This document shows positions 3,883-55,270 of a stretch of DNA of 64,000 nt, piece by piece; position 1 is the stretch's first letter, and each line of letters opens with the position of its first letter. Position numbers and translations under genes: made by a program. The DNA is from Eledone cirrhosa (Eukaryota), in the NCBI GenBank assembly GCA_964016885.1, contig OZ024743.1:336536001-336600000 (forward strand). The letters are read 5' to 3'. The notes under the pieces are model-generated. The model was not told the origin of the DNA. It did not search any database and saw only the letters and a list, made by a program, of their open reading frames with translations.

Positions 3883-4884
3883 ATGTCACCACCAACGACA
3901 GAGGCCGAGATTTCAGAGCTGCGGGCTATGGTCAGAGAGTGGGCTGGTCAAATTAAAGCCCTCTCAAATCAAGTAGAGAACCTGACCTTTCAAATACACT
4001 GACGACGCAGCAACAGTCGATCCAGGCCTTTTCACAGTCGAAGATCCAGAAGTCCCAGTCAAAATCGTGTGCCTGGCAACCTCTGCTGGTATCACACAAA
4101 ATTCGGCGCACAGGCATCTAAGTGCAAAGCCCCGTGCTCTTTCCGGAATACCACCCAGGGCCTAGCGACGACGTTCACCCCTGGTACTGAAAAGAAAAGT
4201 CGTCTATTTTTTATTAACGACCAGGCGACAGGCATCCGTTACCTCGTGGATACAGGAGCCCAGGTTAGTGTTATTCCTGTTTCACTAATCTCGGGCAAAA
4301 GACACCCAACACCGTCCTTTCTGCAGGCAGTGAACCGATCGTCAATTCCGACTTTCGGGGGGAAATCCCTAACCCTCAATTTAGGCCTGAGGTGGCGTTT
4401 TCAATGAGTGTTCGTCGTGGCAGACCTGCCGACCCCTATCCTAGGAGCCGATTTTCTCCACCACTTCAACCTTCTAGTGGACATAAAGAACCGGAGGCTC
4501 ATCGACACCACCACAAACCTCACTGTAAGAGGTATATTTACCACGCAATCCATAGTGAGCCCTGTAATTTGCCAGTCAGAGCCTTCGCGGTACAACGGCA
4601 TTCTCCAGAAATACCCAGACATCACTCGCCCGGTATTTAAGGATGGACCTATTAAGCATAATGTCACACACCACATCGAGACAAGAGGACCACCCACAGC
4701 TGCCCGACCAAGGAGACTGCCTCCAGACCGATTGAGAATCGCCAACAGGAGTTCCAACACATGCTGGACCTCGGAATCATTCGCCCTTCCTCCAGCAACT
4801 GGTCTGCACCCTTACACCTTGTTCCTAAAAAAACGAGAATGATTGGCGACCATGTGGGGATTATCGTGCACTTAACATTCTACA
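3883..4884 (+). pseudogene. gag: Truncated gag, aspartic protease and RT N-terminus (stops and frameshifts)
   Basis: CWYHTKFGAQASKCKAPC, LVDTGAQVSVIP and ILGADFL motifs. In-frame TGA at about 4000 and 4405, frameshifts at about 4745-4840. Confidence 0.85.
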
Positions 4885-7083
4885 GTGCCCGATAATTACC
4901 CTGTACCTCACCTGCACGATTTTTCTGCCTCTCTGCAAGGCGCACGCATCTTTTCCAAGATAGATTTGGTGCGTGCATACAACCAGATACCTATGGAGCC
5001 TGAAGATATTCCGAAGACCGCAATCACAACGCCGTTCGGTTTATTCGAATTCCTGCGAATGCCGTTCGGTCTGCGCAACGCTGCACAAACTTTTCAGCGG
5101 TTTATTGACATCGTGTTATGCGATCTACCCTTCGTATACGCGTATATTGACGACGTGCTGGTAGCAAGTACTTCCGAGCAAGAACACGAGAAGCACTTAG
5201 ATCTCCTTTTCCAACGTTTGGCTGAGTACGGTATCATCATCAACCCCAGCAAGTGCCTTCTCGGCGTTCCTTCACTGTCCTTTCTCGGGCACATCATCGA
5301 TAAAGACAGCATTCGTCCACTTCCCGAGAAAGTAGAAGCTATCCGCAGTTTTCCCGCACCTACATCACTTCGGAAACTGCGTGAATTCCTCGGTCTGGTG
5401 AATTTTTATAGGCGTTTTATCCCTCATTGTTCCGACGCAGCCAGACTCCTCACGAACCTTCTTCGTAACCGGACTCGCAAAAACGAAGAGATCACTCTAA
5501 ACGAGGAAGAATTAACATCTTTTAACCGCCTGAAGGAAATGTTGGCAAACGCTACCATGCTCGTTTTCCCCAGGTCTGGCGCTCCTCTTTCGCTGCTAGT
5601 GGACGCATCAGACACGGGGGTTGGAGGCGTTTTACAACATGTCGACGGCGTGTGGCAACTCTTATCCTTCTTTTCTAAGCGGTTGCAACCGGCAGAAAGG
5701 AAATACAGTACCTTTGGCCGCGAACTCTTGGCAACCTATCTTTCGGTTAAGCATTTTCGGCACATGCTCGAAGGATCAGATTTCGTGATCTACACGGACC
5801 ATAAACCACTAGTTTATGCGTTCCGTACCAAACCTGATCGACATTCACCGAGAGAACTCCGACACCTGGATTTTGTCTCCCAATATTCAACTGATATTCG
5901 GCATATCAAGGGATCAGACAACGTAGCAGCCGACGCCCTGTCCCGAATGCAACTGAACGCAATACATGTGCATTCAGGCATCGACCTTCAACAGATCGCA
6001 GCTGACCAAGAGACTGACGAAGTGTTTATCAAGCTCCGAGATTCTCCATCTCTCAAGTTTCAGCAAGTTCCCATTGCTTCTTCTCCGGGACAAATTTGGT
6101 GCGACTTTTCTACCGGTCATGAACGACCGTACGTACCACAGATGCATCGTCGACAAGTTTTTTCTGCTTTACACTGCTTGTCTCACCCGGGAATCCGGGC
6201 TACAGAGAAACTCATCTCTGCTCGTTTTGTGTGGACTAACATTAACAAGGACGTGCGCGACTGGTCCAGGAGCTGCATTGCCTGCCAGAAAGCCAAAGTC
6301 CACAGACACATCAAAACTCCACTCGGCACATTCGCGCAACCTGATGCACGTTTTCATCATCTGCATATCGACATCGTCGGATCTCTACCACCATCACAGA
6401 ACTACACACACTTGCTCACCTGCATAGATCGATTTTCCCGTTGGCCTGAGGCTTTTCCCATAAATGATACCTCAGCGGAAACAGTCGCTAAAACTTTGGT
6501 TTTACACTGGGTATCACGTTATGGCGCCCCAGCGAAGATAACAACGGACAGAGGACGCCAATTTGACTCCCACCTCTTCAGGGAACTGACTCGCCTGTTA
6601 GGATGTAAACACATCCGCACGACAGCTTATCATCCGCAAGCTAATGGTCTCGTGGAAAGATTCCATCGCCAATTGAAAGCTGCAATAAAAGCATATCCAG
6701 ACAAGACCCACTGGTTTGAATACCTACCACACATCCTTCTGGGCATTCGATCCACCGTTAAGGAGGAATTCGGACACACACCTGCAGAATTAGTGTACGG
6801 CACCACCCTGGTTCTACCTGGTCAGATGGTTGCTCCCATATCTCCTCGGGATGTTCCAGACCCAGGATCATACGTACACCGTCTTCGACAATATATGTCT
6901 CACCTTGTTCCTGCAAGCACCCGTCAGGAGAACACGTCCACACACGTACCTTCAGACATTAAAGATTGGACACGTTTTCGTTCGAAACGACACCATCTCA
7001 GCTCATCTTCGACCTCCATACTCTGGCCCTTATCGTGTTCTAAAAAAATATCTGAAATATTTTATTCTCGATCTAGATGGTAA
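4885..7083 (+). CDS. pol: Pol: reverse transcriptase, RNase H, integrase (C-terminal frameshift)
   Basis: [41 protein letters not shown] zinc finger and D,D35E (HIDIV, TTDRG, NGLVER). Confidence 0.92.
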
Positions 7084-11479: not shown

Positions 11480-13990
11480 TAAAAGGAACTGGTAGATAAA
11501 GTATAAGATGCACTTAGGAGTGGCAACGTAGCCTGCGTGCTAGCAACGAGAACGGCCTTGGACCAGTTCTTCGACGCAAAGCACGAAGGCTGCATTGTCA
11601 GGAGCAAAATACGTGCTCTGGGAAACGAGGGAGCCAAAGCTGTTAGCTGGGCCCGAATGACAGAGACGAATAGTGGCAACAAGTCCACGATTCGGTCTTT
11701 GAAGGACCAAGACGGACGCAAGATACTTGAGCCGAAGCAGATGTGCGCGGCCTTTCAGCGGCATTTTGCTCAACTGTTCGGGCAGGGTGACGAGACGGGA
11801 GGGGCTATGGATTTCAGTCCATACTTCGACGGCCTGCCGCGACTCTCGGACAGCGAGGCGAAGTTCTGCGAAAGGCAGATTTCGGCCGCTGAGATAGGGG
11901 ACGTACTGAGCCAATGCGGCAAACGCAAATCTCCAGGTCTCGACTGTCTACCCTACGAATTTTACGTAGCAATGCCGGACTTGTTCTCCTGTCTCCTGGA
12001 AGCAGTCTACTGCAACTGGCAGCAGAACGGGAGAATTCCCAGTTCTGTGACCGAGGGCGTAGTCACGTTAGTCAGGAAGGACGAGAATAAGGGGGACGAC
12101 ATAGGCAAATTCCGGCCCATAACTTTGCTAAACACAGAGTTACAGATTTTGGCCAAGGTGTTGGTAAAGAGGCTGGCACTTGTCGTCGAAAACCTGGTGG
12201 GAGTAGCGCAGAGATGCGCAATCCCGACCAGGTCCATACATGATAACCTCCACCTCATGCGATACATCATAGAGAGGGTAGGGTGTGAACTCGGCTTCGG
12301 TGGGGCCCTGATCAACTTGGATCAGTCTAAGGCTTTCGATAGGGTTGACCATCGTTACCTGGATGCGGTGCTCGAGGCGGCAGGCTTCGGACCCGTGTTC
12401 AGGGGCTGTATTGCTGCAATTCACAGCAGCAACATCTGCTCAAGGGTCAAGGTGAACGGCTACCTCTCGGAGCCCTTCCATATCACGCGATCCATCCGAC
12501 AGGGATGCCCTCTCTCCTCCCTTCTGTACGTACTGACTCTCGAGCCACTTTTGCGGAAGTTGGAGCTATTGCAGGGCATTCCTTTGGAACCAGGACTGCG
12601 AAAAGCGGCGTCGGCCTACGCCGACGACATGGTAGTAATGGTGTCGAGCACCTCGCAAATCGGGGAGGTCAGCACCTTACTAAAGGAATACGAAAGGTTC
12701 ACAGGAGCGAAGCTGAACCGGGACAAATCCGTCGGTTTGCAACTTGGAGAGGCAAACCTATGCCTTCCGATGGCGTCGTCGGACGCTGGACGGAAGGACT
12801 GGTAAAGCTGCTCAGGGTCTGGTTTGGTCCGGACCTCCAGGTGGAGAGGAACTGGAACGAGGTGACGGCCAAGGTGTTTGCACTCACCCAGAAATGGGCC
12901 GAGTGCAAACTATCCTTGAAAGGTCGAGCGGAGTTGGCGAACACTTTTATATCGTCCGTCATCTACTACCGGTTGACCGTTGTGCCTTGTCCAGCCAAAA
13001 GGCTCACCAAAATGGAGCGCGCTATCTTCCAATTCCTTTGGAAGAAACGGGCTCCTTTGGTGAGAAGATCCATCTGCTGCCAACACCCTTCAAACGGAGG
13101 GGCTGGGGATGCCGTGGCAGACGATGCGCAAACACGCGCTCAGGCTGCGGCACCTCCACGTATTTCTCACCGGACAACCGGTGTGGGCCCCGTTCGTGAG
13201 GCGAGCCTTCCCACGACTCGTCTCGTTGACCGAGCTGCAGTCCTGGGTCAAGCAAAGACCGAGGAAAATGGGCGACTGGCACATCAAATGTGCTCAGACG
13301 CGCACAGTCCTCTGGCAAACGGACCGGGCGGTCAGTGGAGACTCCACTTCGTCATTCTATAGAGGGTTGATCCGCAGCAAGTGCGACAACGCGCTCGGAG
13401 AAACTCTGGGCGTAGAGGGGGATGAACTGGCCTATCTGTTCGGTAGGACCTTGCGCCCGGGACCGATGGACAACTTCCAAAAATCCCTGGCCTGGCAGTG
13501 CTACTGAGGAGCTCTACCAGTTCGAGACAAGCTCTACAGACATGGGCGCCCGGGCAGGGACCCTTCGAAAAAGATCTGTCCGAGATGCGTGCGCGACGAG
13601 GAAACCGTCGTGCACGCATTTGTACACTGCCCGGGCGTTACCGACCTGTGGGGCTATGTAGAACGACTATTGTCGCGGGTGGGACCAATCCAGTTAACCA
13701 CCGAGTCCATTGTCATGATCAAACCGCTACCCTCCTTCAAAAACGAAGGAGATGCGGTTTTCCTATGTGTTATGGCTATGGTAAAAGAGGTTATATGGTG
13801 GACGAGGTTAAAAGGGCTGAGGTCAGACACCTTTCTGTCCGGCGAACAACTGATTCGTTTTTTTCAAATATCATTTTGGAAGAAGAATCAGGATGGAGAA
13901 AGAGGTGCTGTACACCAGAAAATTTTATAAAAGGTGGGTGAATGTGACAAAGATGGCCCGAGTGGTTGGGCCTTCTCTCTATATAAGCCC
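11480..13990 (+). pseudogene. LINE ORF2 reverse transcriptase, no endonuclease visible, frameshifted
   Basis: KSPGLDCLPYEFY, FRPITLLNTE, LDQSKAFDRV, QGCPLS, AYADD, KLSLKGRA and HAFVHC motifs. Confidence 0.9.
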
Positions 13991-19980: not shown

Positions 19981-20062
19981 ATATATATATATATATATAT
20001 TTATTATAAAAATTATAAAAAATAAACCAAAGAAGCCTTCAATACATCAAAAGTCTTTATTA

Positions 20063-20100
20063 GCCAACAATGTTTCGTCCTATTAAGGACTCATCAGGAC
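20063..20100 (-). ncRNA. Minimal type I hammerhead ribozyme
   Basis: gtc-CTGATGA-gtcc ttaata ggac-GAAA-cattg-TT-ggc. Confidence 0.8.
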
Positions 20101-21599
20101 AAGTGAAACTACAAGAAGCACTATCGGCCAATACAAGCCAAAAACTCAGAAGAATATGGAGTATACATCTATTAAAGCTTAGCAAAGATATCAAGGAAAC
20201 GTTGGCTAAGATTAAGAGTGAGCAGTTACAAACATAGATATGGACCAAATAGCAAGGAAGTGATTAACATGTTAAATCCACATTGCAAATATTGTATAAT
20301 GCAAAAACTTGAAACACAAATGGTAACATAATGCGAGAATTACAGTACGATATAGAATAGAATATAATAGATGGTGATAATAAAAAGCTTAATATATGTA
20401 TATATATATATATATATATACATATACACATTAGTACAAATACAAACTAACACTTATTAAGTATTTAAATATATATATATATTGTTTACAGTATAATATA
20501 ATAAAAATAAAAATAAGAATAAAGATAAAGATAAAAATAAAATATAATATATAATTCCCTGTCAGTGTGCATAAACAATATAGAAACATTATAATAACAT
20601 TATAATAACAATATTATAATATATTGGCATCAAAAGATATACAAAATTACATCATACATATAATTCAAGGTTAACAAATAGTATAAAGTTTTACACAGGG
20701 TAAGAAAAAATCATATAGAACTAAATTGTGTTGAAAAAATATCTATACCATTGTAACAAATACACGGAGGTCAAGTCATTTTACATTGGCATAAATATTA
20801 CCAAAATATCACAAAATATTACAAAATATATTTACGTGGTTGACATACAGACATATATTAATGAAATTACATGGTCAGACAAACAGCGTGTGGTAGTAAA
20901 AAAATAAATTAAATAAACCGAAGATCGAAAAACAAAAACAGGTATATATACTTAGGTGTCACAAGCGGTTAAGTAAAAGAAAAAAGATAGAAATGTAGAC
21001 CAGAGAGTTGACTAGAAAACCTTTTTAAATTAATTAATATTAAAAGTATTTAAAATACATATTTAGTCACTTCAAAATTGGCTAGTGTTTAAGTCATCAA
21101 AACCGTATAAGTTTAAGATATCTCAATAAAATTATCAAGAATAAAGTAAAATATGCTTCGTTCTGTCGAATAACGTTATCAAATAAAAGGACTCTAAATA
21201 GAACTATGGTAGACCAATGGGAACAGAAAGAAGATAGGTTGTGGAGGATAGGAAGGAGCATAAAACTAAAATCAATATATTATATAATATCATAAAAAGG
21301 AGCATAAAGGTGAAATTTATATATAGTATAATAGAAGGGGCGGATATTAAGTGTGTAGAGGAGGAGGTTCATTAGTTGAATGAGACTCCAAACAAAGTAT
21401 TTAATAAGATATAAATCATAAGGTGTTAGTAGTGAAACTATAATAATGCTTAAGAAGATAGATAGGGTATGGTAGCCAAAAGACTATGGAAACTAAAATC
21501 GAAAAACTGTAAAAAACTAATAATAATAATGATGATAGTAATCAAAATGAACCTAAACAAAAAAGATAAGGAAATATAGCAGCTAATGGATACGATTTA

Positions 21600-24295
21600 A
21601 ACTACCAGAACTTTTAGGTCTATAATAGAAGAAAGAATTAGAAATGGCATGGGGGCAGGAAGAAAATATCTCAGACTTTCTATTAAGCAAAACTTCCCTA
21701 GAGAAAATTATAGAGTGGGTCTCTAGGATACAGAGATTACAGAATTTAGTGTGTGTTGATAGATTTTTAGAGCGTGCTACTATACGCTAATTAAGGCTAT
21801 ATGGCATACCAGCCCCTTTAAGATCCCAGATATGGTGTGCTAAAGAAGTAGAGTTCTTAAACTTAACATGCTTAAAATTAGAGATATGAGAATTAAACCT
21901 AGTTTTAAAAGTATTAGATGTGGAGCCTATATATGTGCTATTACAAGAATTAGTCTTAACTTCACAAGCATAAACAATGTTCCTAGAGAGGCAGTGACCA
22001 TTTAAAGGGGAGTTAATACTTACTCTACAGTTACACCTCTGGGTGCTATTGACCGGCTGAATGAGTGATGCATCACTCCTAGGGTTATTATAAGATAAGG
22101 TCTGCTCAGGTGGTAAGGCATTAATGGATCCATCAGGACTAGTAGTACGCAAAGAGGAGTAGCTGTCCCTAATTTTTCTATTGTTAGTGCTAGCTAAATG
22201 AGAACTAATATTAGGGGTGGTAGAGAATGATAGTTTAATTACATTTTTATTAAAAATACCATGGTATTTATTAGAAGGAGGGAAATTTTTCTCTAAGATA
22301 GAAAAGAAAGACCTAGGGATGTTAGTTAATACTTCATGATCATAAGGCGGGTTAAAATAAGTATTGAGTCTCCTCCTATTTCTGTCCTTACCAACTCTAC
22401 CGTTATCCAGTGTCCCACTAATAGGATCAGGGTTACTACGAGGACTAGTTGAAACAACATTATTAGAAGCAGCCAAAACCCTATTGAGTCTCCTTCTGTT
22501 TCTACCTTTAGTATATCTACTGTTATCTAGAATCATATCAATAGGATTAGGGTTACTACCAGGATCAGTTGAAACAACACTATTAGAATTAGTAAAAACA
22601 TTACCACTGGGTGAGCGATCAGAGTGCCTAAATTGTTCCCTAGAACTAATCCCGAAATTTGTACCATTAGACTCACTATTACGATTACGGTAGCTTAACC
22701 TATGGATGGGTTCGGATACACCTATGGGATTTCTACGATTCTTATGCTTTCTACTCCCATTCATGGCCATATTATGGGATATTATGTTATTATTATTATG
22801 GGTAAACGGAGACTTTCTAAGGTTGTTCTCATTATAACGTATTTTACCAGAGTAACCAGAGTTAGCTAGGGCATTATTATAGTATTCCGCATGTGAATTA
22901 AATATTCCTATATCCTTAGAGAGTGTGGAAATTCTATTAGATACACCGTTAATTATAGAGCTAATCATAGATTTGGGGTGGTTAGAATTGGGATTAACAT
23001 AAGAGAGTATCTCATTTGGCTTATGGAAGGGTTTATAACTATTAGTGACCAAGTCCAAAGTCACATCTAAAAAGTTGACCGCTCTATCATTTCTATCAAT
23101 CGTGATCGAAAGGTTAACATTTTTAAAAAATGTATAAAGTTTCTTCCTATTATGCTCAATGTTATTGGTGCTAGAGTTTATCACAAACAATGCATCGTCA
23201 CGATAAAGTCCGCCTTTAAGGTGCGGAAAGGTAACATACAGTTCATTTAGAAAGAACAGCCCAACAAGATCAGTTATCTGGGCCGAATCACTCGAACCCA
23301 TTGTAACGTCGAAGTTGTTGGGTGTGTTTTACGCGTCCAGAGTGTATCCTCAAATTTTATGATAGTCCTACGGGCTGCTAGTATAACATCAATCTGCGGT
23401 CGTGTAAGGCTAGATACTCGCATGGCTATAATTAAGGTTTTATTAAGGAGGATAGGTGAAATCGACGTGTAATAGGCATCAATATCAAACTGGATAAACC
23501 TACTAGACTCAAGTTTATAAATACCAGAGAACCAATCTATAACATCCTTAGTGTTCCCCCATAGATTAAAATGAACCATTTCCCTAACGGCTGGTATAAT
23601 CAGGTCAAGGATTTTCTTACTAATTATAGCTATATCAGACTTAGAAGGACTAATGAGTCTAATGAAGTCTACCTTATGATCCTTAAGAGTGAATCTGGTT
23701 CCCTAGGGTAATATGGCTGGGTGTACTTATCAAGGCCCAGGTCCGAAACTATCTTGAGACCCTCATTATTGATATGATCCAAATTATCTTGCGTTGTCTT
23801 TTTGTAATTTTTATGCAGCTCCTTATAAATAAAATTACGGTAAGCATTGTAATCCATAGAGTAAAGATTCTTAGTATTGTCAGTCGGGACAAGAATAGAC
23901 TTATTCCCTTCAAAATCCTTAACGATATTCTTAAGTTTAGACTGGAACCTGTCGAACATATTATAGTTCCCATATCTATTATACGGCCTATACTTTATAT
24001 TTTTGACAAGGGAAAGTAAATCGTTCTCAAAATTATCTAATAGAACATTATGCTGTGGGCTCTTATAAGTCTTGAAGCCAAAGTTATTGAAACGAGTCCT
24101 ATCCCGGAGGTCATTCCCATTCCTATTAATATCAAAGTGAAAAGCACGCCATCTAATCCTTTTTACGAAGGAGTTAACACTAGCAATTAAGAGTTTTTCA
24201 TAAGTATTTCTAGAGGGGATGGGAATATTCTTCAGAGATAAAGGCAGGTAGCTCTTTGTTAGCATACTGTCAGATATATATAAAGGCCAAAACAC
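21600..24295 (-). pseudogene. PLE polyprotein: RT plus C-terminal GIY-YIG endonuclease (frameshifts, one stop)
   Basis: SLKNIPIP, FIQFDIDAYYTSI, MGSSDSAQITDLVG, GLYRDD, NFLDVTL, FNPPY, IVYACEV...YIGSTSNTFKTRF and CNLCILE motifs. Confidence 0.9.
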
Positions 24296-24487
24296 CAGTA
24301 TATAGGAAGAAGCTCAACCAATCGGGAGCCGTAACAAGAATTAAAACACTAGAGTGTGTTGGAGTTAAACACCCTCTTCATATTATAGAAATGACAGTAT
24401 AAGATATAGCTCAATGTAATTAAACAGAGCCGAAGAATTATAAAAAATAAACCAAAGAAGCCTTCAATACATCAAAAGTCTTTATTA

Positions 24488-24525
24488 GCCAACAATGTTT
24501 CGTCCTATTAAGGACTCATCAGGGC
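24488..24525 (-). ncRNA. Minimal type I hammerhead ribozyme
   Basis: gcc-CTGATGA-gtccttaataggac-GAAA-cattg-TT-ggc. Confidence 0.85.
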
Positions 24526-25143
24526 AAGTAAAGCTACAAGAAGCACTATCGGCCAATACAAGCCAAACACTCAGAAGAATATGGAGTATACATCTATTAA
24601 AGCTTAGCAAAGATATCAAGGAAAGGTTGGCTAAGATTAAGAGTGAGCAGTTACAAACATAGATATGGACCAAATAGCAAGGAAGTGATTAACATGTTGA
24701 ACCCACATTGCAAATATTGTATAATGCAAAAACTTGAAACACAAATGCGAGAATTACAGTACGATATAGAATATAATATAATATAATAGATGGTGATAAT
24801 AAAAAGCTTAATATATGTATATATATATATATCTATACATATACACATTAGTACAAATACAAACTAACACTTATTAAGTATTTAAATATATATATATATA
24901 TTGTTTACAGTATAATATAATAAAGATAAAAATAAGAATAAAGATAAAAATAAAAATAAAATATAATATATAATTCCCTGTCAGTGTGCATAAACAATAT
25001 AGAAACATTATAATAACATTATAATAACAATATTATAATATATTGGCATCAAAAGATATACAAAATTACATCATACATATAATTCAAGGTTAACAAATAG
25101 TATAAAGTTTTACACAGGGTAAGAAAAAATCATATAGAACTAA

Positions 25144-25178
<35 letters not shown>

Positions 25179-25191
25179 AAAGTTTTTATTA

Positions 25192-25229
25192 GCCGACAAT
25201 GTTTCGTCCTATTAAGGACTCATCAGGGC
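25192..25229 (-). ncRNA. Minimal type I hammerhead ribozyme (GUC site)
   Basis: Inverted copy of 27176-27213. Confidence 0.85.
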
Positions 25230-27175
25230 AATCAAAACAACAAGAGGTAATTTCGGCAGATACAAGCCAGAAACATTGAAGAATATGGAGTGTACATACA
25301 CTAATGTTTGCCAACACTAATGTTATCATTGGTTTTTGATGACTCTTCATTCTAGCTCTCATAATCATTTGGCCACTATACCATATCTATGTCTTCAGTA
25401 TTACACCTTGTTAGTATACATAAGATTACACACTTTATGCCACTTACGTCATTCTCTTATTATCTTTATATATTCTTTTATTATCATTAACTTTAATTTT
25501 AATTTTAACATTATTTTTATTTTTATTTTTATTTTTAATTCTATTTTTATTTCTAAGTCTATTCTGATTTATCTATCGACACCCCCCCCCCATGCACACA
25601 TAAACTTATTGTCAACCCCTCCAGATTGAATATGATTATATTTAAACCCCCCCCCCCCTCTTTTATGCTCTGTTCTATTATTTATTATAGTATATCGAAT
25701 ATATTTTATGCCACTTCGCACCCTCCATATATTTTGTCAATTCTGTCCCCATTAGCCTACCTTAACTCTACTTAAGTCAGTTTTTTTTTTAGATATCGTT
25801 GCGTATATGATAGTGTAATTTTATTCCTTTTTGTAAACATGTGTAACGATACATTAAAGTTTATATACTTTAATGACTTAAACTATAGTTAATTTTATAC
25901 TACCTTATCGGATGGGTTTGATATTTTTAATATTAATTTATCAGATAGGGTTTGGAGTCATTTAAGATGATCGCTTTCCTTGGTGTTTACCAAATTTCTT
26001 AATGCACGCGAGGCCTAAATGTATATACATTTGCTTTTGTTTTGTAATTTCCGGTTGATTGTATTTATTTGTCTTATTCTATATTCTATTTACTATTCAC
26101 TGTCTGGCTTCGCTCACTCATCCACACATGTCTGTCTACTAACCTTGTAATTATAAGTATTTATATATTTTATGCCAATTTTTAAAATATATTACATTAT
26201 GATATAGATCCTTATTACTTACCGTTTATTATATATAACATTATGATATTTAAACTTTATATATCATGTAAGACGTCTGGATTTTTTAATATTTTAATAT
26301 TGTAATATGTAACATTATGATATTTAGACTTTACATATCATGTTAGATGTCTGTATATTTTTTTCTGTAACATCATATTTTTTCTGTAACATCATAATTG
26401 TTCCCTGTACCATTATAGTTTTTTTTTAGTATTATTGTATTATATTATATGATTTATATTTCCTCATTTATTATGTAACCCAGTATGAATCATTTTGTAC
26501 ATATTGTTTATGGTAATTGTTAATATAATGTTAACATTTTATCATCGTATTTCATTGTGACATCTATATTGTTTCTGTAAATTAACCGGGGATTATCTAT
26601 TCTACTTTATTATATTGTATTGAATTATATAATTTTGTTGTTTATTATTTGTTATAAGTGTTTCTTGTAATTATATCATATTATTGCCTCATGTATATTG
26701 GGTAGATGTATTAGTATTATTTTCACTATTACCATGCTTATTTTTAATATTCAAACTTCTAATAGGGCTTAATTTCTGTGTAATAGAAAATAGATATGTG
26801 TATTGTAATATGTGTGTGTGTGTGTGTGTGTGCGCGCGCACATATATACATGTATATATTGTACCTTTTGATTTTTAATTTAGAATTTTAATGTTGGTAT
26901 AAATATATTATTATTATAATGTATTATATTGTGTTATATATAATTCCTGCTCTATATAACCAAATTTGTTTAGATTTAAGTTGGTGGCTTTGGACTATAT
27001 TTGTAATATGGTTCTTAATGTTATCTACATCCTTAGTTATTATAATTTTATTATTTTTATCTTTATTTTCATTTTTATTATCGTATATCTTTGCAAGACA
27101 TTAGTGTATGTACACTCCATATTCTTCAGAGTTTCTGGCTTGTATCTGCCGAAATTACCTCTTGTTGTTTTGATT

Positions 27176-27213
27176 GCCCTGATGAGTCCTTAATAGGACG
27201 AAACATTGTCGGC
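27176..27213 (+). ncRNA. Minimal type I hammerhead ribozyme (GUC site)
   Basis: gcc-CTGATGA-gtccttaataggac-GAAA-catt-GTC-ggc. Confidence 0.9.
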
Positions 27214-27360
27214 TAATAAAAACTTTTGATGTATTAAAGGATTCTTTGTTTTACTCTCTTAATTTTTTGGCTCTGTTTAACTGCATTGAGCTATACCTTT
27301 TACTGTCATTTCTATAATACGAAGAGGGTGTTTGACTCAAACACGCTCCAGTATTCTAAT

Positions 27361-27425
<65 letters not shown>

Positions 27426-28272: not shown

Positions 28273-28304
<32 letters not shown>

Positions 28305-28306
<2 letters not shown>

Positions 28307-28760
28307 CGATATTAAATAAATGGAAACTATATTTATAAAACCATATTTATTTCATTATATATATTTCAGGGATATCATATTAAAAATATGTTATGCCTTC
28401 TTCAGACAAAATACAATATAAACAGTCTTATAAATAGATAGATTCGACATACCTTTCAACTTCGACTTCTATTTGAAAAGTTGATTTGGTAAATCAACTT
28501 TTCAAATAGAAGTCGAAGTTGAAAGGTATGTCGAATCTATCTATTTATAAGACTGTTTATATTGTATTTTGTCTGAAGAAGGCATAACATATTTTTAATA
28601 TGATATCCCTGAAATATATATAATGAAATAAATATGGTTTTATAAATATAGTTTCCATTTATTTAATATCGTAAATATACTCCAAATACTTGTTGAGTGC
28701 TTTTATATCAGTTATAAATATTTACTCGTTGTTAACCCAACAATTTAAATAAAACTTTGC
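28305..28760 (+). repeat. pLTR fragment forming a 183-bp-arm palindrome, HHR in each arm
   Basis: Arms 28305-28487 and 28491-28673. ttttgt-CTGAAGA-agg...cct-GAAA-tatata-TA-atgaaa at 28567-28628, mirrored at 28350-28411. Confidence 0.8.
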
Positions 28761-28784
28761 ATATATATATATATATATATATAT

Positions 28785-29470
<686 letters not shown>

Positions 29471-30247: not shown

Positions 30248-30440
30248 AAGACCCCGACGGCTGAGCTCAAGCCGTTTCGACGGCTAATTCTGGACTAAGT
30301 TCATTTAGTCCAGAATTGGCCGTCGAAGCGGCTTGGGCTCAGCCGTCGGGGTCTTACTGGTTCCTATTACCCACTCTACTGCCCCAAGTATTGAGTACTT
30401 TGGTGCGGTCCACCTGGTTCCTTACCACATTTCCTTCGTT
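30247..30440 (+). repeat. Family B fold-back fragment, copy 2
   Basis: Arms 30247-30299 and 30304-30356. The tail is the reverse complement of 18475-18552. Confidence 0.75.
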
Positions 30441-30443
30441 ATA

Positions 30444-30480
<37 letters not shown>

Positions 30481-30498
30481 GGAAAAAATGAAACGAAA

Positions 30499-30564
<66 letters not shown>

Positions 30565-30568
<4 letters not shown>

Positions 30569-32182
30569 GAAGAGAGAAGAAACATTTAGATATAATTAGT
30601 AATAAAATGTATCATACCTAAACTGCTCCTAAATTCCTCGACTACGTAGTTTCGTGGCATAAACAAAAACAATATATCATGAAGATATAGAGTCCTTGCG
30701 AGGTCTGCCGACTTATCAAGAGGATACCTCATTTTACTAGTCTCAAGAACGCGTCTACACGACGTGAGAAAGAATCCCAAAAGGCGGAGGGGGAGATAGT
30801 CACGCGATATAACGGTCGAGAAACAGAGCTAAGCCTCTTATAACCCCGAAGAAAATACCACGGAGGCGGAGGGGGTATTTATATCGAGGCCGTAGAAGAG
30901 GTGGTGAAGAAGGCAAGAAGTATGAGTAATGGAAGCCTTCCAGCTGTCCCCACACCTCAAAGATTGCTCGACCAGAGGGAGTTATTAACAATATAATTAG
31001 AAACACAAAGATACATGCGGACACACACACATATATACATGAATGCATCCGCACCCAACTGTGAGTTAAGGGTGCCAACTTCACCGATGTTGCTCAATGA
31101 ATGACTGGGACAGACCAATTCAGTTGAACTAGACTGAACCAGTATCAGAGTTAAAAATACATTATGAAGAGAGAAGAAACATTTAGATATAATTAGTAAT
31201 AAAATGTATCATCACGTCGTGTAGACGCGTTCTTGAGACTAGTAAAATGAGGTATCCTCTTGATAAGTCGGCAGACCTCGCAAGGACTCTATATCTTCAT
31301 GATATATTGTTTTTGTTTATGCCACGAAACTACGTAGTCGAGGAATTTAGGAGCAGTTTAGGTATGATACATTTTATTACTAATTATATCTAAATGTTTC
31401 TTCTCTCTTCATAATGTATTTTTAACTCTGATACTGGTTCAGTCTAGTTCAACTGAATTGGTCTGTCCCAGTCATTCATTGAGCAACATCGGTGAAGTTG
31501 GCACCCTTAACTCACAGTTGGGTGCGGATGCATTCATGTATATATGTGTGTGTGTCCGCATGTATCTGTGTGTTTCTAATTATATTGTTAATAACTCCCT
31601 CTGGTCGAGCAATCTTTGAGGTGTGGGGACAGCTGGAAGGCTTCCATTACTCATACTTCTTGCCTTCTTCACCACCTCTTCTACGGCCTCGATATAAATA
31701 CCCCCTCCGCCTCCGTGGTATTTTCTTCGGGGTTATAAGAGGCTTAGCTCTGTTTCTCGACCGTTATATCGCGTGACTATCTCCCCCTCCGCCTTTTGGG
31801 ATTCTTTCTCACGTCGTGTAGACGCGTTCTTGAGACTAGTAAAATGAGGTATCCTCTTGATAAGTCGGCAGACCTCGCAAGGACTCTATATCTTCATGAT
31901 ATATTGTTTTTGTTTATGCCACGAAACTACGTAGTCGAGGAATTTAGGAGCAGTTTAGGTATGATACATTTTATTACTAATTATATCTAAATGTTTCTTC
32001 TCTCTTCATAATGTATTTTTAACTCTGATACTGGTTCAGTCTAGTTCAACTGAATTGGTCTGTCCCAGTCATTCATTGAGCAACATCGGTGAAGTTGGCA
32101 CCCTTAACTCACAGTTGGGTGCGGATGCATTCATGTATATATGTGTGTGTGTCCGCATGTATCTGTGTGTTTCTAATTATAT
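30565..32182. mobile_element. Retrozyme-like family C: 597-bp tandem units in inverted arrangement
   Basis: 30565-31212 minus (about 1.1 units) and 31212-32182 plus (about 1.6 units). Period 31212 to 31809, near-identical copies. Confidence 0.85.
31255..31344 (+). ncRNA. Type I hammerhead ribozyme, U3-A8 core variant (also 31852-31941 + and 30635-30724 -)
   Basis: tcctc-TTGATAA-gtcggca...tgccac-GAAA-ctacgta-GTC-gagga. Confidence 0.7.
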
Positions 32183-32224
<42 letters not shown>

Positions 32225-32227
32225 TAT

Positions 32228-32618
32228 ACGTTATTCCGGGTTGAATCGGAGGTAACCACAGTAAGTAAGGTACTCAATACATAGCAGAGTATAAAAGTTT
32301 TAATATAGATGAGATTCTGCAGGACTGGAACTGTTTCATTCATTGGAAGTCATCGGGAGTCTGGGTATCAAAGGGTAAAAATGGTATTTGTGGGTCTCTG
32401 CGGGTGGTGAGAGAGGGTGGGGAGTGGGATGGGTGTAGGTCATTGGTTGATGGAAGGGGGAATTCATTGAAGGCTAATTCTGCAAAGCTGTAGTTTGTTT
32501 TTATTTGTTTGTTTATGTTTTTGGAGTAGCGGGGGCGGACAGAATTCTGTAAACGGGTTCTGGATGGCATACCATTCCTTGTCATTAGGTTTCTCTTGAG
32601 CTAACAGATGTCTATAAA

Positions 32619-34649: not shown

Positions 34650-39010
<4,361 letters not shown>

Positions 39011-46789: not shown

Positions 46790-48270
46790 CGTGGGAAAGT
46801 AAGAAATCGGAGAATAGACCGTTAAAACATGTTTATTTAAAACAGCAACCTACGTACGTTTCGCCCAGTTGGGCTTCTCAAGGGCATAAATAATCAAAAG
46901 TGTTCCTTACATTGCTCGGAAAGAGTATTGGGGGTTAAATCCACGTCAAGGTTCATTGCTCGCAAAAATAGCTTGTTTTGATTTTGCAGCAGGTCAAGGG
47001 AGGTAACTCTGGCCGGTGTTAGGTCAGTCTTTCCCGGACAAATGTTTTTATCCGCTACGAGATGAGGTTACAACCTTACCATTGTCGATACGCATGTAAT
47101 CAACGCTTATTTTGAGAATTTCTTTTGCCGCATCTGTTTGTCTGAGTCGTTTGAGGCTGGATCTGGTATGCAAGGATAGTTTCCTGGGTGTTCTTTTGCA
47201 GCCCCTGCCCGGTGGGGTGTTAAGACTTGTTGCAGGGAGATCCGGTGCACGGTTTCACCCCACATCCTTAACCCATCTGAAGAAGGATATTTTTAAGCGA
47301 TGTGTACAACTTATCGCTGTTTCAGCTCTGCTGTTGATGAACTCGTGGGGTGCAGTTATGATGTGGTAGAGCTCCATGAGGCAAAGATCGCATTTCCTCT
47401 TGAAGTTGTACGGTGCAGTCCTGCCGACAATATCCCAGTGCGTGGAGAAGCTGATGTTTAAGTACTTTAGTGATGTGATCTAATCCGCGAGCGAAGTGGA
47501 GTGTCTTAGTTTTTTATTTGTGAAAGAATGGAGATGTGTTCGAAACCTAATTTTGAACGGGCCGGAGGTAGCCCCTATATAATGTTTAACGCTATTGTGG
47601 CTAGTCATAGTGCATCTATATATAACCCTATCAGTCAAGCAGTATCCTCTAAGGGGGCAGCGTCCTCTGTCGCGGCAGTTGGAATTTCTGTCGCGGTTCC
47701 GTCTATTTCCCACGGTAAGGCTCTCATTGTTGCTGCCTAAGTTGTTACCTACGCTACCGCAGCTGTCGTTAGCACCATTACAACCCACAGCACGCGGGGT
47801 GGTGTGATTGTTATTCCGCACGTCATGTCCTGCATGTTCCCCAATCATTTCGCGGTTATGCTGGTTGCGTCTGCGGATGCCGTTGCCAACACTATTGGAT
47901 GCTGCCAGGGAGTTGTTAAGGCCGATATAGTTATTGTCAGGTGTAGGTGCGTCTGTGTCGAGGTGCTGTGTCTTGGTGATCTTACTGTGGTTCGTTGTTC
48001 CTATGATGTCTGCTAGGTTAGGAGTAGTAGAGAAGGATATTTTTATATTGTTCCTAATAAGAATTTTTCTATACCTATGGTTGGGCGGGAAGTTCTTCTC
48101 TAAGGCTTCAAAGAACATCCGTGGTATGTTGGAGGCCACACTCTGAGGGTAGTGGGGTGGAAATATAGGACGTTACGGTGGCGATTACGTGTCCTTGTAC
48201 GTTTGCTACGGGTGGTTCCATCTAGGTGACCGCTCTTATGTGTGTTAATGCGCAGTCGCCCGTTCGGTGC
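46790..48270 (-). mobile_element. PLE 3' fragment (linker, GIY-YIG, pLTR with HHR at 46849-46883)
   Basis: IKISFSTTPNL, CPLRGYCL and VIYRC..YIGATSGPFKIRF. cc-TTGAGAA-gccc aact gggc-GAAA-cgtacg-TA-gg. Confidence 0.85.
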
Positions 48271-48989: not shown

Positions 48990-50230
48990 TTAATATAGAT
49001 GAGATTCTACAGGGCTAGAACTGTTTCATTCTTTAGAAATCATCAGGAATCTGGCTGTCCAAAATAAATATTGTGGTTTCCGTAATCTAGGATTTAGTAT
49101 AACTATAGAATCTAATATGACTAGGGGCAACTTTTTAGATGTCGCACTCGACCTAGATACTTCCTTCTATTACCCGTACCACAAACCTAACGAGTCCCTT
49201 AGATATATTAATGTTAATTCTAACCACTCCAAAAACATCACTGATAACTTAGTAAAAAGCGTCTCTATTAGAATCTCCGGCCTCTCGGCCAATGAAGATC
49301 TATTTAGCGCCTCTACCTCCTACTACAATGACGCCCTCGCTCGCAGCTGATTTAAAGAAAAGATAACTTACCTAGAAACCACCGCAAGACCGCATAGGAG
49401 GAATAGGAATAGGCAGATTAGCTGGTATAACCCTGCCTTCAATAGGGAGGTCTCTATACCTATAGCCAGGATATTCTTCACTTTGCTGAATACACACTTC
49501 CCCATACAACATAGGTACTACACCATATTTAATAAGAACACAATAAGACTCTCCTACTCCACTACACCTAACCTAGCTAGAAATATAGCCAATCTCAATT
49601 TTAAAAAATTAAATAAGCCAACCACCTCCAAACCCAATCCCCGGACTGAGGCCTTGTGCAATTGCCTAAATAAGAAAGCCTGCCCACTTGAAAACAAATG
49701 CCTGACAAATGATATCGTATACAAATGCGATGTCATCTCAGGCACCGATGATTGCAACAACATAAAGACTTACATCGGCATGACCTCCAATAAATTTAAG
49801 ACCCGGTGGTGTGCCCATACCCACTCTTTAAGGAGACCGGACAAATCAAATCACACTACACTCGCCTCCTATGTTTGGGACCTCAAAAGGAACACCTCTC
49901 CCTTCACGCTTAAATGGAAAATACTCCAGAAAGCGCGCTCATACAACGGAGGACACAAGTGCTGCGACCTTTGTATCTCAGAGAGCTATGAAATTTTATT
50001 CGCCAAAGGTCCGCTACTGAACAAACACTCTGAACACTGCCCGAACTGCATGCACAATAACTTTGCAACTTTCAAATACCTTAAGCCAGTTTTAATGCCA
50101 TGTGGCTAAAAATGACTTCCCCCTTTTTTTTTAAACGCCACCCGGCAAAATAGCCCCTCTACTTCCTCCCCACCCTACCCCTACACCTTCTCGACCTGAA
50201 ACACGGCACTATCCTTATGTAAGTACATCA
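48986..50230 (+). mobile_element. 5'-truncated PLE preceded by an inverted family-D pLTR piece
   Basis: NFLDVAL, WYNP, CNCLNKKACPL, IVYKC..YIGMTSNKFKTRW and CDLCISE, with one in-frame stop at 49348. Confidence 0.88.

Positions 50231-53733: not shown

Positions 53734-55270
<1,537 letters not shown>

What the first reader, a model, noticed from the sequence alone, without database searches (positions are those of the whole stretch)
30565..32182. Retrozyme family C: 597-nt tandem units with a U3-A8 variant HHR and multibranch stem II
Seen: three near-identical HHRs read TTGATAA instead of CTGANGA, a double change that preserves the 3-8 core pair as U-A. They have a perfect stem I (tcctc/gagga), palindromic stem III (ACTACGTAGT) and a GUC site. 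Loop II holds two more hairpins (cct-cgca-agg and tatatc-ttcat-gatata). HHR-to-HHR spacing defines a 597-nt monomer, and the array is inverted on itself. Strict CUGANGA searches would miss it. High identity between copies suggests a recent insertion.
Basis: partly seen in the sequence, partly recalled or inferred. Interest (0 to 1): 0.72.

Follow-up and report, generated by a model that had tools for sequence, protein, structure and literature searches.

The report
Hammerhead retrozyme with two-ended Penelope insertions
This is one young copy of a 597-base non-coding repeat present thousands of times in this animal genome; it carries a known variant of a predicted self-cutting RNA, and its mirror-image insertions into TA repeats almost always have one short and one long fixed end, which likely records a Penelope-type retrotransposon enzyme copying one RNA onto both sides of a DNA break.

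Summary
Mostly confirmed. Three identical type I hammerheads with a U3-A8 core lie in a 597-nt unit, arranged as head-to-head arms (1.09 and 1.63 units) inside (TA)n. The genome holds 7,592 exact copies of the cleavage-site 20-mer. U3-A8 is a published natural variant. Stem II is not multibranched: it is one long hairpin (-22.5 against -13.1 kcal/mol; the proposed extra hairpin pairs in only 69% of cells). The real signal is at the ends. Insertions stop about 80 or about 247 nt past the cleavage site, and 61 of 64 scorable two-armed insertions have one end of each kind. Hydra-type Penelope elements with long open frames in this genome show the same pattern (6 of 6). This fits the two internal start sites shown in vitro for a Penelope enzyme, and it adds strict pairing of the two sites. 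Ribozyme core and short-end motif are about 97% conserved against 84% elsewhere. A circular template is likely but unproven; cleavage and expression are untested. This scan reported the same two-ended pattern earlier for other families. Verdict: new member of animal non-LTR retrozymes.

The parts
30440..30564 (.). Left (TA)n target tract; a target-site duplication cannot be read in it
30560..31212 (-). Inverted arm, 1.09 units; 3' end at the short site (80 nt past cleavage), with the terminal G read as A as in other terminal copies; 5' end meets the direct arm with 1 nt of overlap
30635..30724 (-). Type I hammerhead, U3-A8 core; predicted cut between 30640 and 30639
31212..32183 (+). Direct arm, 1.63 units; 3' end at the long site (247 nt past cleavage)
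31255..31344 (+). Type I hammerhead, U3-A8 core; predicted cut between 31339 and 31340
31280..31316 (+). Single extended hairpin on top of stem II (8 bp + 6 bp), not a multibranch loop
31340..31936 (+). 597-nt monomer from cut site to cut site; non-coding, 42% GC, strongly folded (z = -7.7)
31406..31421 (+). Short start site motif (c67-82), internal copy; 97% conserved in older subfamilies; resembles the short end of the Hydra-type PLE
31585..31590 (+). Long start site (c246-251), internal copy; the terminal copy is at 32182-32183
31693..31793 (+). TATA-like word and two copies of a C-rich box kept in older subfamilies; possible internal promoter, untested
31852..31941 (+). Type I hammerhead, U3-A8 core; predicted cut between 31936 and 31937
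32184..32228 (.). Right (TA)n target tract

Best explanation
This is a young copy of a high-copy, non-coding hammerhead repeat (an animal non-LTR retrozyme) that is likely copied into TA microsatellites by the enzyme of a Penelope-like element, which would start reverse transcription at two fixed sites inside one RNA, one site for each cut DNA strand. Shown by sequence: the 597-nt unit, the hammerhead fold, thousands of copies, (TA)n targets, two fixed 3' ends (about +80 and +247 from the predicted cut), scattered 5' ends, and one end of each kind in two-armed insertions. Inferred: tandem transcripts are cut at the GUC site, probably by two hammerheads pairing through the self-complementary stem III; the monomer is ligated to a circle; a dimer of a Hydra-type PLE protein binds it, nicks both strands of (TA)n and extends each 3' end from one of the two sites; the enzyme can pass round the circle more than once; the two cDNAs are joined head to head, or one arm is lost.
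For: Ends: 56 of 60 position-picked loci have only short or long outer ends. Of 119 loci, 68 are two-armed; 64 have both outer ends at a fixed site, and 61 of these 64 have one short and one long end (the last 15 read by eye; binomial p = 2e-15 against 0.5). Target: TA-type flanks on both sides in 54 of 60 and on at least one side in 60 of 60. Priming scar: the last four bases of the short end read ATAT in 18 of 92 terminal copies against 0 of 180 internal copies (p = 1e-9). Partner: 20 fetched PLE copies picked for long open frames; all 20 have DKT and CxCX5C, 10 of them 895-898 aa from the first Met; terminal repeats up to 99.7% identical; they end at +50-54 or +152-153 in (TA)n, one of each in 6 of 6 scorable inverted copies. 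The PLE short-end sequence scores best against the retrozyme short end, first of 597 windows. Selection: in older subfamilies the HHR half not used to pick the locus is 236 of 244 identical and the short-end motif 179 of 184, against 4,251 of 5,067 elsewhere; stem I shows a U-A to C-G change. One template: rare core variants are shared by both HHRs of one locus in three cases, once across opposite arms; nine sample-private variants in eight loci are in every copy of both arms. Arms over two units in 8 of 60 loci. Stem III self-duplex -12.9 kcal/mol, no hairpin alone. Precedent: two internal start sites, both strands cut and extended, predicted dimer (PMC11167929); circRNA from animal retrozymes (PMC7229834).
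Against: No cleavage, expression or circle was shown here. No blastn similarity between the unit and the 20 PLE loci beyond short weak hits and retrozyme copies inserted next to them. The short-end match wins by a small margin (16.9 against 15.7), and the PLE long end does not pick the retrozyme long end. Other PLE clades were not searched. For the anole PLE, HHR cutting was not needed and uncut RNA was the main template in vitro, and start sites did not differ between strands. Most private variants are in one copy only (117 single, 26 shared, of which 8 only partly shared). The 6.8-unit array L117 has variants with a 3-unit period that fails at the seventh unit, which points to local duplication after insertion. 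Three two-armed loci break the rule (2 short-short, 1 long-long). Covariation does not exceed the shuffled control.
Confidence: 0.62

Rival explanations
1. Same PLE enzyme and same two start sites, but the template is an uncut linear tandem transcript. The hammerhead only frees or trims transcripts or helps bind protein. Long arrays come from long source arrays or from later local duplication.
For: Ends lie downstream of the cut site, which uncut RNA also allows. Uncut RNA was the main substrate for the anole PLE. L117 shows a duplicated 3-unit block; 8 of 26 shared variants are only partly shared.
Against: 5' truncation would shorten arrays each generation, yet 33 of 60 loci have an arm longer than one unit and two arms reach 4.9 + 2.7 units. 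Genome-wide rare variants are repeated within single loci, also across arms. The catalytic core is held at about 97%.
Confidence: 0.25
2. It is mobilised by a different enzyme (another PLE clade or a TA-targeting LINE), and the likeness to the Hydra-type element is convergence on the same target.
For: No extended sequence homology to the Hydra-type element; several PLE clades target (TA)n (PMC8557442); only one clade was searched.
Against: Two fixed internal ends and head-to-head arms are described as PLE traits; the Hydra-type copies are young, abundant (20,885 first-look candidates, 150 scored) and show the same short/long pairing.
Confidence: 0.1
3. It is a DNA-level repeat (satellite or foldback element) with a relic, inactive hammerhead, spread by recombination or DNA transposition.
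For: Inverted arms resemble terminal inverted repeats; no cleavage data; 8 of 9 Xenopus retrozyme dimers did not cleave in vitro (10.64898/2026.07.22.740005).
Against: Fixed 3' ends with scattered 5' ends, a G-to-A scar only at terminal copies, dispersal over many chromosomes and selective conservation of the core.
Confidence: 0.03

Closest known systems
Animal non-LTR retrozymes (Cervera and de la Pena 2020, PMC7229834, parts 2-4 of 6 read; Li, Clavereau and Pollet 2026, 10.64898/2026.07.22.740005, parts 1-3 of 5 read)
   Same: Non-coding tandem units with one type I HHR each, under 50% GC, strongly folded monomer, thousands of copies, co-resident PLEs.
   Different: Unit of 591-597 nt is longer than the 170-400 nt tested in 2020 but inside the 51-972 bp range of 2026. 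U3-A8 core and a 59-nt stem II domain. The parts read do not describe fixed paired ends or (TA)n targeting. No pLTR homology was found here, unlike 24 of 57 Xenopus families matching known elements.
PLE hammerheads with U3-A8 (Cervera and de la Pena 2014, PMC4209133, parts 1-2 of 4 read; Perreault 2011, PMC3088659, one passage read)
   Same: U3-A8 swap, G10.1-C11.1, short stem I, palindromic stem III suited to dimer cleavage, bulge in stem II, HHR pairs on opposite strands 100-700 bp apart.
   Different: Here stem III has 4 possible pairs, there is no extra base between A9 and stem II, stem II carries a long extension, and the motif sits in a tandem non-coding unit, not a pLTR.
Poseidon PLE of Anolis (PAc; Frangieh 2024, PMC11167929, parts 1-3 of 4 read)
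   Same: Two fixed ends downstream of the HHR cut site, AT-rich target, both DNA strands usable as primers.
   Different: The gap between the ends is about 167 nt here, not 30-40 nt; the sites are U-rich, not an AC-rich stem-loop; the element is non-autonomous; the two ends are paired one-to-one within insertions, which the parts read do not report.
Hydra clade PLEs (Craig 2021, PMC8557442, section 11 and passages read)
   Same: The likely partner in this genome has DKT, CxCX5C, C-terminal GIY-YIG, an HHR and (TA)n targets.
   Different: RWR instead of RWK; about 4.9 kb rather than under 3 kb; the retrozyme itself encodes nothing.

Membership tests
Type I hammerhead ribozyme | Core 3-9, GAAA, UH triplet and three helices in type I order | tested here: met
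   core is the U3-A8 form
Type I hammerhead ribozyme | 3-8 Watson-Crick pair | tested here: met
   U3-A8 in 21 of 22 aligned members, including subfamilies at 75-87% identity; no C3-G8 form inside the family
Type I hammerhead ribozyme | Rfam hammerhead model match | tested here: not met
   no hit at gathering score or E<=10; expected for a changed core and long stem II (inference)
Type I hammerhead ribozyme | Self-cleavage at the GUC site | not testable with these tools
   only indirect: selective conservation
Type I hammerhead ribozyme | Loop 1-loop 2 tertiary contact | not tested
   no analysis made
Animal non-LTR retrozyme | Tandem units with one type I HHR per unit | tested here: met
Animal non-LTR retrozyme | No protein coded; GC under 50%; highly self-paired monomer | tested here: met
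   only short open frames, 42% GC; z = -7.7, 65% paired as a circle
Animal non-LTR retrozyme | Dispersed, retrotransposed copies | tested here: met
   fixed 3' ends, scattered 5' ends, many chromosomes
Animal non-LTR retrozyme | Expressed as monomeric linear and circular RNA | not testable with these tools
   only contigs of unrecorded type were available
PLE-mobilised non-autonomous element | Partial tandem plus head-to-head inverted copy with two alternative 3' ends | tested here: met
   61 of 64
PLE-mobilised non-autonomous element | Sequence homology to a resident PLE terminal repeat | tested here: inconclusive
   none by blastn to 20 Hydra-type loci; weak short-end likeness; other clades not searched
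Hydra clade PLE (candidate partner) | DKT, CxCX5C linker, C-terminal GIY-YIG, HHR, (TA)n target | tested here: met
   DKT and CxCX5C in 20 of 20, YIG in 19 of 20, HHR motif in 19 of 20 loci
Hydra clade PLE (candidate partner) | Placement in an RT tree; absence of the CCHH motif | not tested
   no reference sequences on hand
Plant LTR retrozyme | Type III HHR in long terminal repeats, 4-bp target duplication | tested here: not met
   type I HHR in tandem units within (TA)n

The most novel reading that the evidence does not exclude
One PLE protein dimer grips a single circular retrozyme RNA at two non-equivalent sites 167 nt apart and rolls out cDNA from both strands of a cut TA repeat at once. 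This explains PLE tails, head-to-head inversions and tandem arrays by one mechanism, and names Hydra-type PLEs as the enzyme that writes animal retrozyme circles into the genome.
Probability: 0.4. Interest if true: 0.72.

Novelty: new member of a known kind. Interest (0 to 1): 0.45.

Why it matters
How animal retrozymes are copied, and why Penelope elements leave tails and inverted copies, are stated as open in the papers read. This family offers thousands of young insertions, a small non-coding template, two mapped start sites and young PLE copies with long open frames in the same genome, so the question can be tested in vitro with one protein and one 597-nt RNA. The U3-A8 core itself adds little, apart from showing that strict CUGANGA and Rfam searches miss a family of over 7,000 copies. 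The same two-ended pattern has been noted by this scan for other families, so this locus is one more case, not the first.

Tried and rejected
Multibranch stem II: rejected. 3/8 covariation inside the family: none; three genome matches to a C3-G8 pattern do not belong to the family. Selection at positions 3 and 8 from single-change counts: no signal, 12 and 14 against 9 at position 7. Covariation statistics: not above shuffles for the extended structure. Protein coding in the unit: none seen. Homology to the Hydra-type PLE: none by blastn. Simple complementarity to (TA)n as the rule for choosing ends: rejected, since the best TA-like run (c197-216) is used at 5' junctions but not as a 3' end. 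A-to-I editing marks as proof of a re-read RNA (lead from earlier notes): weak, A>G is 6 of 26 shared against 7 of 117 single variants (p = 0.014) but not above T>C (6 against 4, p = 0.21). A trimer circle for L117: does not fit the seventh unit. Sequencing runs: no RNA holder listed; four of six runs laid, all contigs of unrecorded type; single looped contigs in X4 and X6 fit tandem DNA as well as a circle. Rfam low-score hits to microRNA models: treated as chance hairpins. Literature searches with no relevant hit: Penelope + twin priming + inverted + tail + target-primed, octopus + hammerhead ribozyme, hammerhead + C3U + G8A, retrozyme + internal initiation + Penelope from 2024. A recalled 2017 paper on dimer-cleaving PLE hammerheads is not held. 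Supplements were not read; supplementary HHR lists of PMC4209133, PMC7229834 and PMC8557442 may hold similar motifs.

Full report
Observation. The interval holds three copies of one 90-nt hammerhead fold: 30724-30635 on the minus strand and 31255-31344 and 31852-31941 on the plus strand. They are identical. Each has a 5-bp stem I, the core TTGATAA, a 6-bp stem II with one bulged C, GAAA, a self-complementary stem III and a GUC site. The two plus copies are 597 nt apart. The locus is two arms joined head to head at 31212: a minus arm of 653 nt and a plus arm of 972 nt, with (TA)n on both sides. The arms differ at 2 of 653 positions. Rfam has no hammerhead hit. Below, c-numbers count from the first base after the predicted cut (c1 = 31340).

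Stem II. In 22 members chosen to cover the subfamilies (of 76 distinct HHR sequences), the outer hairpin pairs in 69% of cells and the 14-pair extended helix in 95%, mostly through G-U to A-U exchanges; its outermost pair fails in 10 of 22. Stem I shows one two-sided change (U-A to C-G in both arms of L109, with U-G in L105). These counts do not exceed the shuffled control, so they favour one fold over the other but are not statistical proof. Stem III forms no hairpin alone, while two copies pair at -12.9 kcal/mol. This fits the dimer mode described for animal type I hammerheads (PMC4209133).

U3-A8. The swap is published: about 1,300 hits in S. mansoni, and natural covariation with earlier in vitro activity (PMC3088659, one passage). 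In this family U3-A8 is kept back to subfamilies at 75-87% identity. Genome-wide there are 12 non-U3 and 14 non-A8 copies, against 9 at the free position 7, and no C3-G8 member. Single changes are therefore rare and look neutral.

Family. The 3.0-Gb genome has 6,331 exact core 16-mers and 7,592 exact stem III 20-mers, with controls of 2 and 0. HHR spacings of 591, 593, 595 and 597 mark subfamilies. The first 100 matches fall in 48 clusters by my count, which extrapolates to about 3,600 loci. The best copies are 98-100% identical to this one. The unit has only short open frames and 42% GC and folds far better than shuffles (-188.1 kcal/mol, z = -7.7). In eight older loci the HHR core and stems are 97% identical to the window copy and the c67-82 motif is 97%, against 80-88% for other regions. 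The loci were picked by HHR words, so I rescored only the half not used for picking, in six loci: 236 of 244, p = 6e-10 against the rest; the pattern used allowed at most three mismatches a half, which may inflate this slightly. The c67-82 motif was not used for picking. So the ribozyme fold and the short-end motif have been under selection during spread (inference).

Ends. I examined 119 loci: 60 picked by position on one contig (59 from the first matches listed, one long array added), 40 from earlier searches including this locus, and 19 more, mostly multi-unit. The 3' ends fall at c72-82 (short) or c244-255 (long); 5' ends are scattered. Of the 60, 25 are two-armed with one short and one long end, 17 have one arm ending short, 14 one arm ending long, and 4 are irregular. 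Over all sets, 68 are two-armed. Four were dropped (three with a non-standard outer end, one cut by the fetched edge). Of the other 64, 61 have one end of each kind, two are short-short and one long-long; the last 15 were read by eye, one of them aligning to c86. Independent choice would give about half (p = 2e-15). Flanks are TA-type on both sides in 54 of 60. At the short end the internal GTAT reads ATAT in 18 of 92 terminal copies and 0 of 180 internal ones; this locus is one such case. That is the scar expected if the TA primer overlaps the RNA there. Pairing alone does not choose the sites, since the longest TA-like run in the unit is not used as an end. Arm junctions mostly overlap by 0-7 nt.

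Partner. The window holds a broken Penelope-like element. A piece of it found 20,885 first-look candidates, 150 scored. Twenty copies picked for long open frames all carry DKT and CxCX5C, and 19 carry the YIG motif, matching the Hydra clade text (PMC8557442 section 11); no tree was built. Their terminal repeats reach 99.7% identity. They end at +50-54 or +152-153 past their own hammerhead, in (TA)n, and 6 of 6 scorable inverted copies have one of each; L152 could not be scored. There is no blastn homology to the unit. The PLE short-end 23-mers score best on the retrozyme short end among 597 windows, by a small margin, with the long end third; the PLE long end does not pick either site.

Mechanism. 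Frangieh et al. showed that a purified PLE protein cuts and extends both DNA strands, starts at two internal RNA sites that bound the genomic tail, and is predicted to be a dimer; they also found that uncut RNA was the main template (PMC11167929). The two ends here are best read as such start sites (inference). The strict pairing suggests two enzyme subunits placed at two different sites on one RNA. The two arms of a locus differ by 137 of 12,609 positions over 35 loci and are usually closer to each other than to other loci. For a circular template: arms over two units in 8 of 60 loci; genome-wide rare core variants present in both HHRs of a locus in three cases, one across opposite arms; nine sample-private variants in all copies of both arms; and circles shown for other animal retrozymes (PMC7229834). 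Against: most private variants are single (117 of 143), 8 of 26 shared ones are partial, 'private' means only among 119 loci, and L117 shows local duplication. I put the PLE two-site model at about 0.85 and the circle at about 0.6 given that model.

Known and new. It meets the sequence-level features of an animal non-LTR retrozyme; cleavage and circular RNA could not be tested. A PLE origin for such elements is proposed in 2020 and argued in a 2026 preprint. Tails on one end of inverted PLE copies are known (PMC3846280 passages). One-to-one pairing of the two ends in a retrozyme was not found in the parts of papers read or in the searches; subscription journals and supplements were not covered. 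I saw the pattern, before the look-ups, which show that this scan noted the same pattern for several other families in this and other genomes; those notes are unchecked and are not counted as support. A look-up by sequence found nothing.

Verdict. A real, young, high-copy retrozyme; a new member of a known kind. The insertion anatomy is the valuable part and is directly testable. Interest 0.45; most novel reading 0.4 likely, worth 0.72 if true.

Noticed in passing
window 20008-25146 (-): Hydra-type PLE with 727-bp terminal repeats (95.6% identical), a C3-G8 minimal hammerhead in each and a frame broken into three pieces.
   Followed up: yes
window 25171-27364: PLE 3'-end derivative with an inverted copy; the direct end is at +153, the inverted end at only +18 past the cut site, an exception to the short site.
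   Followed up: partly
window 36698-38092, 47480-48172, 49351-50109: Further PLE fragments with RT or GIY-YIG-like sequence, read by eye.
   Followed up: no
window 28299-28679: Near-perfect palindrome with a C3-G8 hammerhead fold on each strand (28565-28630 +, 28348-28413 -).
   Followed up: no
window 53886-53948 (-): Single C3-G8 type I hammerhead fold with a 12-bp stem I next to a TA tract.
   Followed up: no
window 28924-29367 and 30270-30356: Long near-perfect GC-rich palindromes between TA tracts; unexplained.
   Followed up: no
window 4876-7083 and 11507-12805: An LTR-type pol frame (RT, RNase H, integrase) and a LINE-like RT frame.
   Followed up: no
L148, L150, L162: A second tandem hammerhead family (482-484 nt spacing) with a C3-G8 core, long stem II and palindromic stem III; its last copies run into TA at two different distances.
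   Followed up: partly
L151: A PLE flanked on both sides by retrozyme dimers of different subfamilies (595 and 591 nt), probably independent insertions into its TA tails.
   Followed up: partly
L117: 6.8-unit array whose variants repeat with a 3-unit period for six units.
   Followed up: partly
L070: A whole two-armed insertion duplicated 2,554 bp apart.
   Followed up: no
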